Assembly: GCF_003334305.1 (NCBI RefSeq) | Contig: NZ_QOWS01000006.1 | Length of the DNA stretch: 64,000 bases | Origin: Escherichia coli | GTDB taxonomy: Bacteria; Pseudomonadota; Gammaproteobacteria; Enterobacterales; Enterobacteriaceae | Strand: one strand, 5' to 3' | Made by a program: the position numbers and the translations under genes | Notes under the pieces: generated by a model | Databases searched by the model: none | Told to the model about the DNA's origin: nothing | Seen by the model: only the letters and a program-made list of their open reading frames with translations | Part shown: in pieces, positions 1,348-58,639 of the stretch | Layout of the letters: every line of letters begins with the position of its first letter | Position numbering within the stretch: position 1 is the first letter of the stretch

Positions 1348-2226
1348 ATGGCTGAAGCGCAAAATGATCCCCTGCTGCCGGGATACTCGTTTAACGCCCA
1401 TCTGGTGGCGGGTTTAACGCCGATTGAGGCCAACGGTTATCTCGATTTTTTTATCGACCGACCGCTGGGAATGAAAGGTTATATTCTCAATCTCACCATT
1501 CGCGGTCAGGGGGTGGTGAAAAATCAGGGACGAGAATTTGTCTGCCGACCGGGTGATATTTTGCTGTTCCCGCCAGGAGAGATTCATCACTACGGCCGTC
1601 ATCCGGAGGCTCGCGAATGGTATCACCAGTGGGTTTACTTTCGTCCGCGCGCCTACTGGCATGAATGGCTTAACTGGCCGTCAATATTTGCCAATACGGG
1701 TTTCTTTCGCCCGGATGAAGCGCACCAGCCGCATTTCAGCGACTTGTTTGGGCAAATCATTAACGCCGGGCAAGGGGAAGGGCGCTATTCGGAGCTGCTG
1801 GCGATAAATCTGCTTGAGCAATTGTTACTGCGGCGCATGGAAGCGATTAACGAGTCGCTCCATCCACCGATGGATAATCGGGTACGCGAGGCTTGTCAGT
1901 ACATCAGCGATCATCTTGCTGACAGCAATTTTGATATCGCCAGCGTCGCACAGCATGTTTGCCTGTCGCCGTCGCGTCTGTCACATCTTTTCCGCCAGCA
2001 GTTAGGGATTAGCGTCTTAAGCTGGCGCGAGGACCAACGCATTAGTCAGGCGAAGCTGCTTTTGAGCACCACCCGGATGCCTATCGCTACCGTCGGTCGC
2101 AATGTTGGTTTTGACGATCAACTCTATTTCTCGCGAGTATTTAAAAAATGCACCGGGGCCAGCCCGAGCGAGTTCCGTGCCGGTTGTGAAGAAAAAGTGA
2201 ATGATGTAGCCGTCAAGTTGTCATAA
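1348..2226 (+). CDS. araC: Arabinose operon regulator AraC (AraC/XylS family)
   Basis: 292-aa product [35 protein letters not shown]... Start is internal to ORF 1297..2226 at the ATG at 1348. Confidence 0.97.
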
Positions 2227-2311
2227 TTGGTAACGAATCAGACAATTGACGGCTTGACGGAGTAGCATAGGGTTTGCAGAATCCCTGCTTCGTCCATTTG
2301 ACAGGCACATT

Positions 2312-3076
2312 ATGCAAGCATTGCTGGAACACTTTATTACCCAATCCACCGTGTATTCATTGATGGCGGTGGTGTTGGTGGCCTTTCTGGAGTCGCTGGC
2401 GCTGGTCGGTTTGATTCTACCCGGTACGGTGCTGATGGCGGGGCTGGGAGCGCTGATTGGCAGCGGCGAGTTAAGTTTCTGGCACGCCTGGCTGGCAGGG
2501 ATCGTCGGTTGCCTGCTGGGCGACTGGATCTCCTTCTGGCTGGGCTGGCGTTTTAAAAAGCCGTTGCATCGCTGGTCATTTCTGAAGAAAAACAAAGCAT
2601 TACTCGATAAAACTGAACATGCGTTGCATCAACACAGCATGTTCACCATTCTGGTCGGTCGCTTTGTTGGCCCGACGCGTCCGCTGGTGCCAATGGTGGC
2701 GGGAATGCTGGATCTGCCGGTGGCAAAATTCATTACGCCGAATATTATCGGCTGCCTGCTGTGGCCACCGTTTTACTTCCTGCCTGGGATTCTGGCGGGC
2801 GCGGCGATCGATATTCCAGCCGGAATGCAGAGCGGCGAGTTTAAATGGTTGCTGCTGGCGACGGCGGTATTTTTGTGGGTTGGTGGCTGGCTGTGCTGGC
2901 GGTTATGGCGCAGCGGTAAAGCAACCGATCGTTTAAGTCATTATTTGTCGCGCGGCCGTTTGTTGTGGCTGACGCCGTTAATTTCTGCCATCGGCGTGGT
3001 GGCGCTGGTGGTGTTAATTCGCCACCCGTTGATGCCGGTGTATATCGATATTTTGCGTAAAGTGGTTGGGGGTTAG
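2312..3076 (+). CDS. yabI: DedA-family inner membrane protein YabI
   Basis: 254-aa hydrophobic protein MQALLEHFITQSTVYSLMAVVLVAFLESLALVGLILPGTVLMAG..., typical DedA/SNARE-associated fold. Confidence 0.9.
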   Translation: MQALLEHFITQSTVYSLMAVVLVAFLESLALVGLILPGTVLMAGLGALIGSGELSFWHAWLAGIVGCLLGDWISFWLGWRFKKPLHRWSFLKKNKALLDKTEHALHQHSMFTILVGRFVGPTRPLVPMVAGMLDLPVAKFITPNIIGCLLWPPFYFLPGILAGAAIDIPAGMQSGEFKWLLLATAVFLWVGGWLCWRLWRSGKATDRLSHYLSRGRLLWLTPLISAIGVVALVVLIRHPLMPVYIDILRKVVGG

Positions 3077-3096
3077 GAGATAGTCTTGTGCGGGTT

Positions 3097-3183
<87 letters not shown>

Positions 3184-3189
3184 TGCATA

Positions 3190-3888
3190 CTAACCCGTAA
3201 TCCCCAATAGTGCCGAAGCACTCGCCTTACCGCTCAACAACTCATTGGTCTTACCCTGCCAGGCGATGCGCCCGTCGGCGACCACCACCGAGCGTGTGGC
3301 GATCCGCGCCGCATCTTCCACACTGTGCGACACCATCAATAGCGTCATTTTTTGCTGCTGGCAGCTCGTGCTCACCAGCGTCAGCATCTCCTGACGTAAC
3401 GCCGGATCGAGCGCAGAGAACGGTTCATCGAGCAATAAAATCGGCTGTTCGCGCACCAGACAACGCGCTAACGCCACGCGCTGTCGCTGACCGCCGGAAA
3501 GCTCGCCCGGTAACCGCGCCATTAAATTATCAATCCCCATCTGGCGGGCGATAGCGTGCATTTTCTCCTGCTGCGCCGCGTTCAGCTTCAATCCCGGATT
3601 AAGCCCCAGCCCGATGTTCTGCGCGACCGTCAGGTGGCTGAACAGGTTGTTCTCCTGAAACAGCATCGATACCGGACGGCGTGACGGCGGCGTCGTGGTG
3701 TGATCAACGCTGTCGATAGTCAGCGAACCGCTGGCTGGCGTCAGAAAACCGGCAATCAAATTCAGCAGGGTACTTTTACCCGCGCCGCTTGGCCCGAGGA
3801 TTGCCACCTGCTCGCCGCGTTCTACCGTTAAGCTAAAACGCATCGGCAAATGGTGATAAAGCCAGGTGATATCAGTCAGTTTTAACAT
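3190..3888 (-). CDS. thiQ: Thiamine ABC transporter ATP-binding protein ThiQ
   Basis: [48 protein letters not shown]... with Walker A and ABC signature LSGGQRQR. Start chosen at the internal ATG (3886-3888) rather than ORF-track 3909. Confidence 0.93.
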
Positions 3889-52888: not shown

Positions 52889-52905
52889 AATTGGTAAGAC
52901 CAATT
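52889..52905. promoter_or_regulatory. PdhR operator (autoregulatory site of the pdhR-aceEF-lpd operon)
   Basis: Palindrome AATTGGTAAGACCAATT, ~30 bp upstream of the pdhR start; matches the established PdhR box. Confidence 0.85.
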
Positions 52906-52936
52906 GACTTCGGCAAGTGGCTTAAGACAGGAACTC

Positions 52937-53701
52937 ATGGCCTACAGCAAAATCCGCCAACCAAAACTCTCCGATGTGATTGAGCAGCAACTGGAGTTTT
53001 TGATCCTCGAAGGCACTCTCCGCCCGGGCGAAAAACTCCCACCGGAACGCGAACTGGCAAAACAGTTTGACGTCTCCCGTCCCTCCTTGCGTGAGGCGAT
53101 TCAACGTCTCGAAGCGAAGGGCTTGTTGCTTCGTCGCCAGGGTGGCGGCACTTTTGTCCAGAGCAGCCTATGGCAAAGCTTCAGCGATCCGCTGGTGGAG
53201 CTGCTCTCCGACCATCCTGAGTCACAGTATGACTTGCTCGAAACACGACACGCCCTGGAAGGTATCGCCGCTTATTACGCCGCGCTGCGTAGTACCGATG
53301 AAGACAAGGAACGCATCCGTGAACTCCACCACGCCATAGAGCTGGCGCAGCAGTCTGGCGATCTGGACGCGGAATCAAACGCCGTACTCCAGTATCAGAT
53401 TGCCGTCACCGAAGCGGCCCACAATGTGGTTCTGCTTCATCTGCTAAGGTGTATGGAGCCGATGTTGGCCCAGAATGTCCGCCAGAACTTCGAATTGCTC
53501 TATTCGCGTCGCGAGATGCTGCCGCTGGTGAGTAGTCACCGCACCCGCATATTTGAAGCGATTATGGCCGGTAAGCCGGAAGAAGCGCGCGAAGCATCGC
53601 ATCGCCATCTGGCCTTTATCGAAGAAATTTTGCTCGACAGAAGTCGTGAAGAGAGCCGCCGTGAGCGTTCTCTGCGTCGTCTGGAGCAACGAAAGAATTA
53701 G
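52937..53701 (+). CDS. pdhR: Pyruvate dehydrogenase complex repressor PdhR (GntR/FadR family)
   Basis: [64 protein letters not shown]..., 254 aa; start internal to ORF-track 52904. Confidence 0.95.
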
Positions 53702-53861: not shown

Positions 53862-56525
53862 ATGTCAGAACGTTTCCCAAATGACGTGGATCCGATCGAA
53901 ACTCGCGACTGGCTCCAGGCGATCGAATCGGTCATCCGTGAAGAAGGTGTTGAGCGTGCTCAGTATCTGATCGACCAACTGCTTGCTGAAGCCCGCAAAG
54001 GCGGTGTAAACGTAGCCGCAGGCACAGGTATCAGCAACTACATCAACACCATCCCCGTTGAAGAACAACCGGAGTATCCGGGTAATCTGGAACTGGAACG
54101 CCGTATTCGTTCAGCTATCCGCTGGAACGCCATCATGACGGTGCTGCGTGCGTCGAAAAAAGACCTCGAACTGGGCGGCCATATGGCGTCCTTCCAGTCT
54201 TCCGCAACCATTTATGATGTGTGCTTTAACCACTTCTTCCGTGCACGCAACGAGCAGGATGGCGGCGACCTGGTTTACTTCCAGGGCCACATCTCCCCGG
54301 GCGTGTACGCTCGTGCTTTCCTGGAAGGTCGTCTGACTCAGGAGCAGCTGGATAACTTCCGTCAGGAAGTTCACGGCAATGGCCTCTCTTCCTATCCGCA
54401 CCCGAAACTGATGCCGGAATTCTGGCAGTTCCCGACCGTATCTATGGGTCTGGGGCCGATTGGTGCTATTTACCAGGCTAAATTCCTGAAATATCTGGAA
54501 CACCGTGGCCTGAAAGATACCTCTAAACAGACCGTTTACGCGTTCCTCGGCGACGGTGAAATGGACGAACCGGAATCCAAAGGTGCGATCACCATCGCTA
54601 CCCGTGAAAAACTGGATAACCTGGTCTTCGTTATCAACTGTAACCTGCAGCGTCTTGACGGCCCGGTCACCGGTAACGGCAAGATCATCAACGAACTGGA
54701 AGGCATCTTCGAAGGTGCTGGCTGGAACGTGATCAAAGTGATGTGGGGTAGCCGTTGGGATGAACTGCTGCGTAAAGATACCAGCGGTAAACTGATCCAG
54801 CTGATGAACGAAACCGTTGACGGCGACTACCAGACCTTCAAATCGAAAGATGGTGCGTACGTTCGTGAACACTTCTTCGGTAAATATCCTGAAACCGCAG
54901 CACTGGTTGCAGACTGGACTGACGAGCAGATCTGGGCACTGAACCGTGGTGGTCACGATCCGAAGAAAATCTACGCTGCATTCAAGAAAGCGCAGGAAAC
55001 CAAAGGCAAAGCGACAGTAATCCTTGCTCATACCATTAAAGGTTACGGCATGGGCGACGCGGCTGAAGGTAAAAACATCGCGCACCAGGTTAAGAAAATG
55101 AACATGGACGGCGTGCGTCACATCCGCGACCGTTTCAATGTGCCGGTGTCTGATGCAGATATCGAAAAACTGCCGTACATCACCTTCCCGGAAGGTTCTG
55201 AAGAGCATACCTATCTGCACGCACAGCGTCAGAAACTGCACGGTTATCTGCCAAGCCGTCAGCCGAACTTCACCGAGAAGCTTGAGCTGCCGAGCCTGCA
55301 AGACTTCGGCGCGCTGCTGGAAGAGCAGAGCAAAGAGATCTCTACCACTATCGCTTTCGTTCGTGCCCTGAACGTAATGCTGAAGAACAAGTCGATCAAA
55401 GATCGTCTGGTACCGATCATCGCCGACGAAGCGCGTACTTTCGGTATGGAAGGTCTGTTCCGTCAGATTGGTATTTACAGCCCGAACGGTCAGCAGTACA
55501 CCCCGCAGGACCGCGAGCAGGTTGCTTACTATAAAGAAGACGAGAAAGGTCAGATTCTGCAGGAAGGGATCAACGAGTTGGGCGCAGGTTGTTCCTGGCT
55601 GGCAGCGGCGACCTCTTACAGCACCAACAATCTGCCGATGATTCCGTTCTACATCTATTACTCGATGTTCGGCTTCCAGCGTATCGGCGATCTGTGCTGG
55701 GCGGCTGGCGACCAGCAAGCGCGTGGCTTCCTGATCGGCGGTACTTCCGGTCGTACCACCCTGAACGGTGAAGGTCTGCAGCACGAAGATGGTCACAGCC
55801 ACATTCAGTCGCTGACTATCCCGAACTGTATCTCTTACGACCCGGCTTACGCTTACGAAGTTGCTGTCATTATGCATGACGGTCTGGAGCGTATGTACGG
55901 TGAAAAACAAGAGAACGTTTACTACTACATCACTACGCTGAACGAAAACTACCACATGCCGGCAATGCCGGAAGGTGCTGAGGAAGGTATCCGTAAAGGT
56001 ATCTACAAACTCGAAACCATTGAAGGTAGCAAAGGTAAAGTTCAGCTGCTGGGCTCCGGTTCCATCCTGCGTCACGTCCGTGAAGCGGCAGAGATCCTGG
56101 CGAAAGATTACGGCGTAGGTTCTGACGTTTATAGCGTGACCTCCTTCACCGAACTGGCGCGAGATGGTCAGGATTGTGAACGCTGGAACATGCTGCACCC
56201 GCTGGAAACTCCGCGCGTTCCGTATATCGCTCAGGTGATGAACGACGCTCCGGCAGTGGCATCTACCGACTATATGAAACTGTTCGCTGAGCAGGTCCGT
56301 ACTTACGTACCGGCTGACGACTACCGCGTACTGGGTACTGATGGCTTCGGTCGTTCCGACAGCCGTGAGAACCTGCGTCACCACTTCGAAGTTGATGCTT
56401 CCTACGTGGTTGTAGCGGCGCTGGGCGAACTGGCTAAACGTGGCGAAATCGATAAGAAAGTGGTTGCTGACGCAATCGCCAAATTCAACATCGATGCAGA
56501 TAAAGTTAACCCGCGTCTGGCGTAA
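53862..56525 (+). CDS. aceE: Pyruvate dehydrogenase E1 component AceE
   Basis: 887 aa; [48 protein letters not shown]... Confidence 0.98.
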
Positions 56526-56539
56526 GAGGTAAAAGAATA

Positions 56540-58432
56540 ATGGCTATCGAAATCAAAGTACCGGACATCGGGGCTGATGAAGTTGAAATCACCGAGATCC
56601 TGGTCAAAGTGGGCGACAAAGTTGAAGCCGAACAGTCGCTGATCACCGTAGAAGGCGACAAAGCCTCTATGGAAGTTCCGTCTCCGCAGGCGGGTATCGT
56701 TAAAGAGATCAAAGTCTCTGTTGGCGATAAAACCCAGACCGGCGCACTGATTATGATTTTCGATTCCGCCGACGGTGCAGCAGACGCTGCACCTGCTCAG
56801 GCAGAAGAGAAGAAAGAAACAGCTCCGGCAGCAGCACCAGCGGCTGCAGCGGCAAAAGACGTTAACGTTCCGGATATCGGCAGCGACGAAGTTGAAGTGA
56901 CCGAAATCCTGGTGAAAGTTGGCGATAAAGTTGAAGCTGAACAGTCGCTGATCACCGTAGAAGGCGATAAAGCTTCTATGGAAGTTCCGGCTCCGTTTGC
57001 TGGCACCGTGAAAGAGATCAAAGTGAACGTGGGTGACAAAGTGTCTACCGGCTCGCTGATTATGGTCTTCGAAGTCGCGGGTGAAGCAGGCGCGGCAGCT
57101 CCGGCGGCTAAACAGGAAGCGGCTCCGGCAGCGGCCCCTGCACCAGCGGCTGGCGTGAAAGAAGTTAACGTTCCGGATATCGGCGGTGACGAAGTTGAAG
57201 TGACCGAAGTGATGGTGAAAGTGGGCGACAAAGTTGCCGCTGAACAGTCACTGATCACCGTAGAAGGCGACAAAGCTTCTATGGAAGTTCCGGCGCCGTT
57301 TGCAGGCGTCGTGAAGGAACTGAAAGTCAACGTTGGCGATAAAGTGAAAACTGGCTCGCTGATTATGATCTTCGAAGTTGAAGGCGCAGCGCCTGCGGCA
57401 GCTCCTGCGAAACAGGAAGCGGCAGCGCCGGCTCCGGCAGCAAAAGCTGAAGCTCCGGCAGCAGCACCGGCTGCGAAAGCGGAAGGCAAATCTGAATTTG
57501 CAGAAAACGACGCTTACGTTCACGCGACTCCGCTGATCCGCCGTCTGGCACGCGAGTTTGGCGTTAACCTGGCGAAAGTGAAGGGCACTGGCCGTAAAGG
57601 TCGTATCCTGCGCGAAGACGTTCAGGCTTACGTGAAAGAAGCTATCAAACGTGCAGAAGCAGCTCCGGCGGCGACTGGCGGCGGTATCCCAGGCATGCTG
57701 CCGTGGCCGAAGGTGGACTTCAGCAAGTTTGGTGAAATCGAAGAAGTGGAACTGGGCCGTATCCAGAAAATTTCTGGTGCGAACCTGAGCCGTAACTGGG
57801 TGATGATCCCGCATGTTACTCACTTCGACAAAACCGATATCACCGAGCTGGAAGCGTTCCGTAAACAGCAGAACGAAGAAGCGGCGAAACGTAAGCTGGA
57901 TGTGAAGATCACCCCGGTTGTCTTCATCATGAAAGCCGTTGCTGCAGCTCTTGAGCAGATGCCTCGCTTCAACAGTTCGTTGTCGGAAGACGGTCAGCGT
58001 CTGACCCTGAAGAAATACATCAACATCGGTGTGGCGGTGGATACCCCGAACGGTCTGGTTGTTCCGGTATTCAAAGACGTCAACAAGAAAGGCATCATCG
58101 AGCTGTCTCGCGAGCTGATGACTATTTCTAAGAAAGCGCGTGACGGTAAGCTGACTGCGGGCGAAATGCAGGGCGGTTGCTTCACCATCTCCAGCATCGG
58201 CGGCCTGGGTACTACCCACTTCGCGCCGATTGTGAACGCGCCGGAAGTGGCTATCCTCGGCGTTTCCAAGTCCGCGATGGAGCCGGTGTGGAATGGTAAA
58301 GAGTTCGTGCCGCGTCTGATGCTGCCGATTTCTCTCTCCTTCGACCACCGCGTGATCGACGGTGCTGATGGTGCCCGTTTCATTACCATCATTAACAACA
58401 CGCTGTCTGACATTCGCCGTCTGGTGATGTAA
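56540..58432 (+). CDS. aceF: Dihydrolipoamide acetyltransferase E2 AceF (three lipoyl domains)
   Basis: 630 aa; three repeats of ...[37 protein letters not shown]... separated by Ala/Pro-rich linkers, then a catalytic domain with DHRVIDG. Confidence 0.98.
56546..57420 (+). repeat. Three tandem ~300-bp DNA repeats encoding the AceF lipoyl domains
   Basis: Near-identical segments beginning gaagttgaa(a/g)t(c/g)accga at 56579, 56888 and 57191 (periods 309 and 303 bp). Confidence 0.85.
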
Positions 58433-58435
58433 GTA

Positions 58436-58465
58436 AAAGAGCCGGCCCAACGGCCGGCTTTTTTC
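58436..58465 (+). terminator. Intrinsic terminator after aceF
   Basis: gccggcc-caac-ggccggc followed by a T6 run. Confidence 0.8.
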
Positions 58466-58639
58466 TGGTAATCTCATGAATGTATTGAGGTTATTAGCGA
58501 ATAGACAAATCGGTTGCCGTTTGTTGTTTAAAAATTGTTAACAATTTTGTAAAATACCGACGGATAGAACGACCCGGTGGATAATGGGCGTCATAAAAAA
58601 AACGTCAGACCCGCCGGAGATAAATATATAGAGGTCATG

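What the first reader, a model, noticed from the sequence alone, without database searches (positions are those of the whole stretch)
56546..57420. Triplicated ~300-bp repeats in aceF (lipoyl domains)
Three near-identical DNA repeats in tandem inside an essential metabolic gene. The number of lipoyl domains varies among bacteria, and these repeats are substrates for in-frame deletion or duplication. They can also confuse assembly, so read-level verification is worthwhile.
Basis: partly seen in the sequence, partly recalled or inferred. Interest (0 to 1): 0.25.

Follow-up and report, generated by a model that had tools for sequence, protein, structure and literature searches.

The report
Three lipoyl-domain repeats in E. 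coli aceF
The three tandem ~300-bp repeats are real, but they are the long-known three lipoyl "swinging-arm" domains of the E. coli pyruvate dehydrogenase E2 subunit, so the finding is ordinary and this window shows no sign of misassembly.

Summary
aceF (56540-58432, +) starts with three in-frame tandem units: 56543-56851, 56852-57154 and 57155-57457. Each encodes one Pfam Biotin_lipoyl domain plus an Ala/Pro-rich linker. [quoted passage not shown]

"Near-identical" is overstated. DNA identity is 78-86% in the domain cores and 62-72% in the linkers. The longest exact shared run is 29 nt, and no 31-mer is shared.

The gene is canonical E. coli aceF in the pdhR-aceE-aceF-lpd operon and is 100% identical to strain H15. 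The three-copy layout occurs in 5,415 of the 5,424 complete E. coli genomes that carry aceF. Assembly collapse or expansion in this window is very unlikely.

- Eight complete genomes carry intact two-domain genes, with junctions at the longest shared runs.
- One genome has an out-of-register 192-bp deletion.
- Four-domain forms that match the expected reciprocal products occur in other assemblies.
- Whether these rare forms are real alleles or assembler mis-joins needs read-level checks.

A separate group of 31 genomes carries a foreign (Citrobacter-like) recombinant tract but still has three domains.

Verdict: already known, low interest.

The parts
56540..58432 (+). aceF CDS, 630 aa: dihydrolipoyllysine-residue acetyltransferase (E2p) of the pyruvate dehydrogenase complex
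   Evidence: ORF. 100% identical to aceF of E. coli H15. NCBIfam NF008814 scores 1101 bits against a cut-off of 722. Matches PDB 7b9k over its full length.
56543..56851 (+). Repeat unit 1: lipoyl domain 1 (Pfam aa 4-73 = nt 56549-56758) plus Ala/Pro-rich linker 1 (about 56771-56851)
56852..57154 (+). Repeat unit 2: lipoyl domain 2 (aa 107-176 = nt 56858-57067) plus linker 2 (about 57074-57154)
   Evidence: The core is 78% identical to unit 1 and 86% to unit 3.
57155..57457 (+). Repeat unit 3: lipoyl domain 3 (aa 207-277 = nt 57158-57370) plus the start of linker 3
   Evidence: Matches the solved innermost lipoyl domain, PDB 1qjo.
56660..56662 (+). Codon of lipoyl-lysine K41 (GDKAS motif), domain 1
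   Evidence: Motif positions 41, 144 and 245; AAA read.
56969..56971 (+). Codon of lipoyl-lysine K144, domain 2
57272..57274 (+). Codon of lipoyl-lysine K245, domain 3
56630..56658 (+). 29-nt run GAACAGTCGCTGATCACCGTAGAAGGCGA, repeated exactly at 56939-56967. It is the longest exact repeat between units and the crossover site of the 527-aa lip1/lip2 hybrid variants.
   Evidence: run at columns 88-116. One search places the crossover between columns 87 and 117 in strains 01_3327 and 03_3013.
57386..57409 (+). 12-bp tandem duplication (GCAGCGCCTGCG x2) in linker 3. It is polymorphic: the 626-aa allele differs from this one by a 4-aa (AAPA, 12-bp) deletion that aligns at this repeat.
   Evidence: Strain EBJ003 has the 4-aa (AAPA) deletion. 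The 626-aa allele is on at least 1000 contigs.
57518..57625 (+). Peripheral-subunit (E1/E3) binding domain, aa 327-362
   Evidence: Pfam E3_binding, E 7.5e-16.
57734..58426 (+). Catalytic acyltransferase / core-forming domain, aa 399-629, containing the DHRVIDG active-site motif
   Evidence: Pfam 2-oxoacid_dh, E 3.4e-80; motif visible in the translation.
53862..56525 (+). aceE (E1p), upstream operon partner
   Evidence: annotated as aceE in the matching genomes.
58640..60064 (+). lpd (E3), downstream operon partner
   Evidence: the true start, MSTEIK, is at 58640; annotated lpdA in the matching genomes.

Best explanation
The repeats are the coding sequence for the three tandem lipoyl domains, each followed by a flexible Ala/Pro-rich linker, at the N-terminus of E. 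coli AceF. [quoted passage not shown]

Each domain carries a lysine in a GDKAS turn (K41, K144, K245). That lysine is lipoylated and swings between the E1 (AceE), E2 catalytic and E3 (Lpd) active sites carrying the acetyl group. Lipoylation and the swinging-arm mechanism are established knowledge, not tested here.

The triplication is old. The copies have diverged to 78-86% DNA identity, mostly at third codon positions, and each is closer to its Salmonella orthologue than to its E. coli paralogues. The repeat is therefore a protein-level feature kept by selection, not a recent or homogenised DNA repeat.

Short runs of exact identity remain between units. They are 23-29 nt in this allele and up to 53 nt in other alleles. 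Occasional in-register unequal recombination or slippage at these runs would yield the two- and four-domain alleles seen at low frequency. That step is inferred from junction positions only.
For: Identity and architecture:
- Pfam gives three Biotin_lipoyl domains, then E3_binding and 2-oxoacid_dh.
- NCBIfam equivalogs PRK11854 (1101 bits, cut-off 722) and TIGR01348 (1038 bits, cut-off 552) are both exceeded.
- There is a full-length match to the E. coli E2p structure 7b9k and to lipoyl-domain structures 1qjo and 2k7v.
- The operon order is pdhR-aceE-aceF-lpd.
- The gene is 100% identical to E. coli H15 aceF, and a full-length aceF is present in 5,424 of 5,426 complete genomes.

Age and selection:
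- Protein identity between paralogous domains is 75-87%. Identity to the Salmonella orthologues is 96%, 93% and 91%.
- 20-31 of the 31-49 nucleotide differences per pair lie at third codon positions.

Copy number in complete genomes:
- Probing with a lipoyl-domain-2 query gives a median of 3 and a maximum of 3 places per genome. The total is 16,264 places against 16,272 expected.

Recombination products:
- Eight intact two-domain genes (527-530 aa) were found.
- Their junctions lie in the 29-nt unit 1/unit 2 run, in the unit 2/unit 3 shared stretch at columns 97-149, or at an exact 13-nt (GCACCAGCGGCTG) or a short imperfect shared stretch between linkers 1 and 2.
- Proteins P0032 (733 aa) and P0036 (731 aa) have exactly the layouts expected for the reciprocal duplications.

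Literature:
- The three domains are 73% identical and act redundantly (PMC8421416).
- E2 chains carry one to three lipoyl domains (PMC10849603).
- One domain suffices in vitro, per Guest et al. 1985 as cited in PMC5013485.
- Lowering domain content lowers growth rate and yield, per Dave, Guest and Attwood 1995 as cited in PMC10579247.
Against: Nothing contradicts the identification.

The recombination step is inferred from junction positions only. A de Bruijn-graph mis-join at a shared k-mer would give the same junctions. The commonest two-domain form (527 aa) is recorded mostly on short contigs of 2-20 kb, some from metagenome assemblies.

No four-domain allele occurs among the 5,426 complete E. 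coli genomes.

Lipoylation of all three lysines was not tested here.
Confidence: 0.97

Rival explanations
1. The three copies in this window are an assembly artefact, a collapse or an expansion. The true copy number in the sequenced strain differs.
For: The region is a tandem repeat. Rare two- and four-copy versions exist in public assemblies.
Against: - The units share no 31-mer, and the longest exact shared run is 29 nt. Ordinary reads and k-mers resolve them.
- The sequence is 100% identical over 1,893 bp to a complete genome, H15.
- Three copies are the state in 5,415 of 5,424 complete genomes.
- The reading frame is intact, and the length equals the solved 630-aa protein 7b9k.
Confidence: 0.01
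2. The repeats are recent duplicates, or are kept alike by ongoing gene conversion (concerted evolution). That would explain their similarity and make them highly unstable.
For: Units 2 and 3 are more alike (86%) than either is to unit 1. Some allelic SNPs change a base to the one found in a paralogous unit.
Against: - Each E. coli domain is closer to its Salmonella orthologue (91-96%) than to its own paralogues (75-87%). The triplication therefore predates the split of the two genera, and the copies diverge independently.
- Hybrid-unit queries found no three-domain genome with a large conversion tract.
- 99.8% of complete genomes keep three units.
Confidence: 0.03
3. The DNA repeat has a function of its own, apart from coding for the domains. 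Candidates are a structured RNA, a regulatory element, or the long antisense ORFs (56797-57489 and 57248-58477, minus strand).
For: the ORF listing shows antisense ORFs of 230 and 409 aa across the region.
Against: - Differences between units concentrate at third codon positions of the sense frame, as expected for protein-level selection only.
- The antisense ORFs translate to low-complexity Ala/Gly/Ser/Thr strings, typical of the reverse strand of a GC-rich, codon-biased gene. An equally long antisense ORF (757 aa) runs through non-repetitive aceE.
- Annotated genomes list nothing there except aceF.
Confidence: 0.01

Closest known systems
E. coli K-12 AceF (E2p, 630 aa; structures 7b9k, 4n72, 1qjo)
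   Same: It has the same gene, operon and length, the same layout of three lipoyl domains, PSBD and catalytic domain, and the same GDKAS lipoyl-lysine motifs. K-12-derived genomes match unit 2 at 98-99% DNA identity.
   Different: Only allelic SNPs differ. For example, this allele has T94 in linker 1 where several compared alleles have A94.
Salmonella and Citrobacter AceF
   Same: They have three position-specific orthologous lipoyl domains, 91-96% identical to the E. coli domains at the same position for Salmonella.
   Different: The two examples retrieved here are themselves four-domain variants: P0068 (723 aa, on a 4.47-Mb contig) and P0070 (731 aa). The same instability therefore appears in sister genera.
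E2 chains with fewer lipoyl domains (E. coli SucB has one; other bacteria have one- or two-domain E2p; Serratia symbiotica AceF is reduced to one or two)
   Same: They share the lipoyl-domain fold, the linker, PSBD and catalytic-core design, and the swinging-arm mechanism (PMC10849603, PMC5013485).
   Different: Copy number differs. This window has the full enterobacterial set of three.
Engineered E. coli aceF alleles with one to nine lipoyl domains (Guest laboratory; the nine-domain constructs are recalled from memory, not read here)
   Same: The natural 527-530-aa and 731-733-aa alleles found here have the same kind of in-frame domain loss or gain.
   Different: Those alleles were built in vitro. 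The ones found here sit in genome assemblies of isolates, with junctions at native shared runs.

Membership tests
AceF / E2p long form (NCBIfam NF008814 PRK11854; TIGR01348) | Whole-protein score above the curated equivalog cut-off | tested here: met
   NF008814 scores 1101 bits (cut-off 722). TIGR01348 scores 1038 bits (cut-off 552).
AceF / E2p long form | Domain order: N-terminal lipoyl domain(s), peripheral-subunit-binding domain, C-terminal 2-oxoacid acyltransferase domain | tested here: met
   Pfam gives PF00364 three times, then PF02817, then PF00198, in that order.
AceF / E2p long form | Catalytic DHRxxDG motif in the C-terminal domain | tested here: met
   [12 protein letters not shown] is present near the C-terminus of the translation.
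AceF / E2p long form | Genomic context pdhR-aceE-aceF-lpd | tested here: met
   ORFs; aceE and lpdA flank aceF in the matching annotated genomes.
AceF / E2p long form | Acetyltransferase activity and assembly into a 24-mer core | not testable with these tools
   Inferred from the full-length match (1,322 bits, residues 1-630 of both) to the solved E. coli E2p chain, 7b9k.
Lipoyl domain (Pfam PF00364 Biotin_lipoyl) | Significant profile match for each of the three repeats | tested here: met
   E values are 1.3e-21, 5.4e-23 and 4e-22, each covering 72 of 73 model positions.
Lipoyl domain (Pfam PF00364 Biotin_lipoyl) | Target lysine in the conserved D-K-A turn | tested here: met
   GDKAS occurs at K41, K144 and K245.
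Lipoyl domain (Pfam PF00364 Biotin_lipoyl) | Lipoylation of that lysine in vivo | not testable with these tools
   Established for E. coli E2p in the literature (PMC8421416, PMC2753649); not measured here.
Recombination-prone tandem repeat | Exact identity runs long enough for homologous exchange (about 25-30 nt in E. coli, from general knowledge) | tested here: inconclusive
   This allele has runs of 29, 26 and 23 nt, which is borderline. Other alleles reach 32-53 nt between units 2 and 3.
Recombination-prone tandem repeat | Copy-number variants with junctions inside the shared runs | tested here: met
   There are eight two-domain complete genomes and four-domain proteins with matching hybrid units. 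Whether each is biological or an assembly error was not testable.

The most novel reading that the evidence does not exclude
Lipoyl-domain number in AceF may be a naturally segregating polymorphism within E. coli and its relatives, with two, three or four domains. It would arise repeatedly by in-register unequal exchange at runs of about 20-50 nt of identity (longer in some alleles than in this window) and persist at about 0.1-0.2% because two domains are nearly neutral. No report of this was found in the searched literature. The window itself carries the ordinary three-domain allele.
Probability: 0.6. Interest if true: 0.3.

Novelty: already known. Interest (0 to 1): 0.1.

Why it matters
The finding matters little in itself. 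The triplicated lipoyl domains of E. coli AceF have been textbook material since the gene was sequenced in the 1980s, and their redundancy has been tested by engineering.

Three practical points follow:
- The repeat in this window needs no special verification.
- Annotation pipelines can mislabel intact two-domain alleles. PGAP marks the 527-aa form as a partial pseudogene.
- Anyone who sees an aceF of about 527-530 or 731-733 aa should check the reads before calling it either a real allele or an error. Both recombination and low-k assembly join at the same shared runs.

The survey of 5,426 genomes also puts a number on how stable a 78-86% identical tandem triplication is in nature. About 0.17% of genomes (9 of 5,424) deviate from it.

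Tried and rejected
1. Puzzle: 33 genomes whose best match to unit 2 is only 80-90%.
- I first suspected gene conversion or hybrid units.
- Queries built as unit 2/3, unit 1/2, linker 1 + unit 3, and linker 2 + unit 3/2 hybrids recovered only the eight two-domain genomes. No three-domain conversion class appeared, so that idea was rejected.
- An internal indel of about 24 nt in domain 2 was considered next; one search looked for direct repeats that could mediate one. The later data did not support it.
- Sub-segment queries localised the divergence to linker 1 plus columns 1-177 of unit 2.
- The aceE 3' query showed no separate identity class. Its weakest hit, strain AB_24_S34, turned out to be a member of the group.
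- The group consists of exactly 31 genomes with a Citrobacter-like recombinant tract. It has nothing to do with repeat copy number.

2. Strains 210205630 and 2017-02-2CC ranked high with the unit 1/2 hybrid query. They proved to be ordinary SNP alleles.

3. Protein P0055 (697 aa) looks like a chimeric metagenome contig. P0069 (680 aa, duplication in the PSBD region) and P0072 (668 aa, partial duplication inside domain 2) are singletons. None was pursued.

4. A literature search for natural aceF lipoyl-domain deletions in isolates returned nothing relevant.

5. The genome contigs and metagenome scans, structure prediction and Rfam were not used. The identification was already unambiguous.

Full report
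**What is there**

The window region 52.9-60.1 kb holds pdhR (52904-53701), aceE (53862-56525), aceF (56540-58432) and lpd (58640-60064). All four are on the + strand, with aroP upstream and yacH downstream on the - strand. The aceF CDS is 100% identical over 1,893 bp to aceF of E. coli strain H15. A full-length match exists in 5,424 of 5,426 complete E. coli genomes.

The 630-aa product has:
- Three Pfam Biotin_lipoyl domains (aa 4-73, 107-176, 207-277).
- An E3_binding domain (aa 327-362).
- A 2-oxoacid_dh catalytic domain (aa 399-629).

It exceeds the curated cut-offs of the AceF equivalog models PRK11854 and TIGR01348. It also matches the solved E. coli E2p chain 7b9k end to end.

**The observation**

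Tandem Repeats Finder reports one array, 56561-57423, with period 303, 2.8 copies, 79% matches and score 985. The repeat finder gives three 300-nt copies spaced 309 and 303 nt apart.

In a self-comparison of the CDS, only offsets 303, 309 and 612 give high identity (85%, 76% and 75% in 240-nt windows). Every other in-frame offset stays at or below 45%. Codon-shuffled controls reach at most 0.446, so z is about 43. The repeat is real and far beyond chance.

The units in register are 56543-56851, 56852-57154 and 57155-57457. Each is a lipoyl domain of about 75 codons followed by an Ala/Pro-rich linker of about 27 codons.

**How alike the copies are**

They are not near-identical.
- Domain cores: 78%, 78% and 86% identical.
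- Linkers: 62-72%.
- Whole units: 74-82%.
- Longest exact shared runs: 29 nt (units 1/2), 26 nt (1/3) and 23 nt (2/3).
- No 31-mer is shared between any two units.

Most differences lie at third codon positions: 31 of 48, 30 of 49 and 20 of 31. At the protein level the paralogous domains are 75-87% identical. Each is 91-96% identical to the Salmonella domain at the same position. The triplication therefore predates the split of Escherichia and Salmonella. The copies have diverged independently under selection on the protein, not through strong concerted evolution.

**What it does**

This part rests on established knowledge. Each domain carries a lysine in a GDKAS turn (K41, K144, K245). The lysine is lipoylated and carries the acetyl group between the E1, E2 and E3 active sites on the flexible linkers.

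The literature held here says:
- E2 chains have one to three lipoyl domains (PMC10849603).
- The three E. coli domains are 73% identical and act redundantly (PMC8421416).
- One domain suffices for activity, per Guest et al. 1985 as cited in PMC5013485.
- Fewer domains reduce growth rate and yield, per Dave, Guest and Attwood 1995 as cited in PMC10579247.

The finding is a textbook feature.

**Is the copy number in the window trustworthy?**

Yes. With unit 2 as query, complete genomes have a median and a maximum of 3 places. The total is 16,264 places against 16,272 expected for three per genome. The window equals a finished genome base for base, and the units share no long k-mers. I see no reason to suspect collapse or expansion here.

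**Are the repeats substrates for deletion and duplication?**

I built hybrid-unit queries so that rearranged genomes would rank first. They recovered all eight genomes with only two places.

| Strains | Change | Product | Junction |
|---|---|---|---|
| C2, C4, Rb-50, VTB97379v | 303-bp in-register loss | 529 aa, lip2/lip3 hybrid | Shared stretch at columns 97-149 |
| 01_3327, 03_3013 | 309-bp loss | 527 aa, lip1/lip2 hybrid | Inside the 29-nt identical run |
| DSM 103263 | 306-bp linker 1-linker 2 deletion | 528 aa | Exact 13-nt shared run GCACCAGCGGCTG |
| FDAARGOS_1283 | 300-bp linker 1-linker 2 deletion | 530 aa | Short imperfect shared stretch |

All are intact ORFs with the normal start codon. 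PGAP nevertheless labels the 527-aa form a partial pseudogene.

A ninth genome, strain 463, has an out-of-register 192-bp deletion between the two VGDKV-coding motifs of domains 2 and 3. It gives a 566-aa protein with a malformed fused domain.

No complete E. coli genome has four copies. However, the protein database holds E. coli AceF forms of 733 and 731 aa. Their extra unit is a lip2/lip1 hybrid or a lip3/lip2 hybrid respectively. These are the reciprocal products of the two deletion types. Four-domain forms also occur in Salmonella and Citrobacter.

The variant proteins recur in public assemblies. They appear on 454, 182, 22, 17, 6 and 2 contigs for the 527-, 529- (C2 type), 530-, 529- (VTB type), 566- and 528-aa forms.

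**Caveat on the variants**

A junction at the longest shared k-mer is what unequal recombination predicts. It is also what a low-k de Bruijn-graph mis-join predicts. The 527-aa form is recorded mostly on contigs of 2-20 kb, some from metagenome assemblies. I cannot see reads, so the share of real alleles is unknown.

Other alleles have longer identical runs between units 2 and 3 than this window does: 32, 38 and 53 nt against 23 nt. Both recombination and mis-assembly should therefore be easier in those backgrounds.

**A side puzzle, resolved**

Thirty-three genomes matched unit 2 at only 80-90%. Four of these are two-domain genomes (DSM 103263, FDAARGOS_1283, 01_3327, 03_3013). The remainder belong to a group of 31 genomes that keep three places each.

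Hybrid and sub-segment queries excluded paralogue conversion. They localised the divergence to linker 1 and the first 177 nt of unit 2.

Strain AB_24_S34 proved to be a member of the group. Its allele differs from the window as follows:

| Segment | Differences |
|---|---|
| Domain 1 | 10 of 221 |
| Linker 1 | 11 of 88 |
| Unit 2, columns 1-87 | 16 of 87 |
| Unit 2, columns 88-177 | 6 of 90 |
| Last ~500 nt of aceE | About 25 |
| Downstream of column 177 | Almost none |

Its amino-acid changes are Q66E, A69K, D78E, D82A, Q87P, D107E, S115G, K130T and E132A. They reproduce the Citrobacter-type sequence P0070.

Exactly 31 complete genomes carry this tract at 100% identity, including NC101, NGF1, M-17 and PSUO2. 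All other genomes fall at 80-90%, with nothing in between. This is an interspecies homologous-recombination import of about 0.9 kb. It is not a repeat rearrangement, and these genomes still have three domains.

**Verdict**

- The interpretation as aceF lipoyl domains is correct and already known.
- The deletion/duplication idea is supported by population data.
- The assembly concern does not apply to this window.
- Interest is low.

Noticed in passing
L013 (NZ_CM185171.1 AB_24_S34), locus 2000-2960; corresponds to window ~56050-57000: Thirty-one complete E. coli genomes (NC101, NGF1, M-17, PSUO2 and others) share a mosaic aceE-3'/aceF-5' allele. It has a tract of about 0.9 kb that is 5-18% divergent from other E. 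coli and Citrobacter-like at the protein level. The tract ends inside lipoyl domain 2. It looks like an interspecies recombination import.
   Followed up: yes
L011 and L012 (strains 01_3327, 03_3013), locus 1798-3381: RefSeq/PGAP annotates the two-domain aceF as a pseudogene ('partial in the middle of a contig; missing N-terminus'). The 527-codon ORF is in fact intact, with the normal ATG and ribosome-binding context.
   Followed up: yes
window 57386-57409: A 12-bp tandem duplication in linker 3 is polymorphic. A common 626-aa allele (for example EBJ003, on at least 1000 contigs) differs from this allele by a 4-aa (AAPA) deletion that aligns at this repeat.
   Followed up: yes
window 58581-58611 (aceF-lpd spacer) versus L003 2927-3073: Several strains (C2, VTB97379v, 210205630, 01_3327) have an aceF-lpd spacer about 117 bp longer than this window's. 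The extra DNA contains AATCCCCAGGAGCTTAC...GTAAGTGAC, which from memory resembles the core of an ERIC/IRU intergenic repeat. The window lacks it.
   Followed up: partly
L001 (strain 463), locus 1689-3389: An out-of-register 192-bp in-frame deletion joins the second VGDKV motif of domain 2 to the first VGDKV motif of domain 3. The 566-aa product would have a malformed fused domain. The same protein is seen on 6 contigs.
   Followed up: partly
window 54111-56384 (-), 56797-57489 (-), 57248-58477 (-): Long antisense ORFs (757, 230 and 409 aa) run through aceE and aceF. They translate to low-complexity sequence and are not annotated in any matching genome. They are most likely by-products of codon bias.
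   Followed up: partly
window 56537-56557 and 58637-58657: The starts of aceF and lpd are alike at the DNA level: ATAATGGCTATCGAAATCAAA against ATGATGAGTACTGAAATCAAA, 76% identical, encoding MAIEIK and MSTEIK. This is probably coincidence.
   Followed up: no
protein collection, cluster 3: The 90%-identity cluster that holds the 630-aa AceF also lists 887-aa AceE proteins and has an 887-aa representative. This looks like a clustering artefact in the database, so cluster sizes there should not be read as AceF counts.
   Followed up: no
P0070 (Citrobacter sp., 731 aa) and P0068 (Salmonella enterica, 723 aa, 4.47-Mb contig): Four-lipoyl-domain AceF forms also occur in sister genera. The Citrobacter one has a shuffled order of hybrid domains (1/2 hybrid, 3/1 hybrid, 2, 3), which could be a complex rearrangement or an assembly error.
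   Followed up: partly
H255 (NZ_CM165891.1 strain N41) and others, linker 2 region: With a probe for the unit 2 C-terminus plus linker 2, ten genomes gave no match, of which seven are explained above. Four more matched only partially; N41, for example, covers 1-80 of 126 nt. This suggests further rare linker 2 indels.
   Followed up: no
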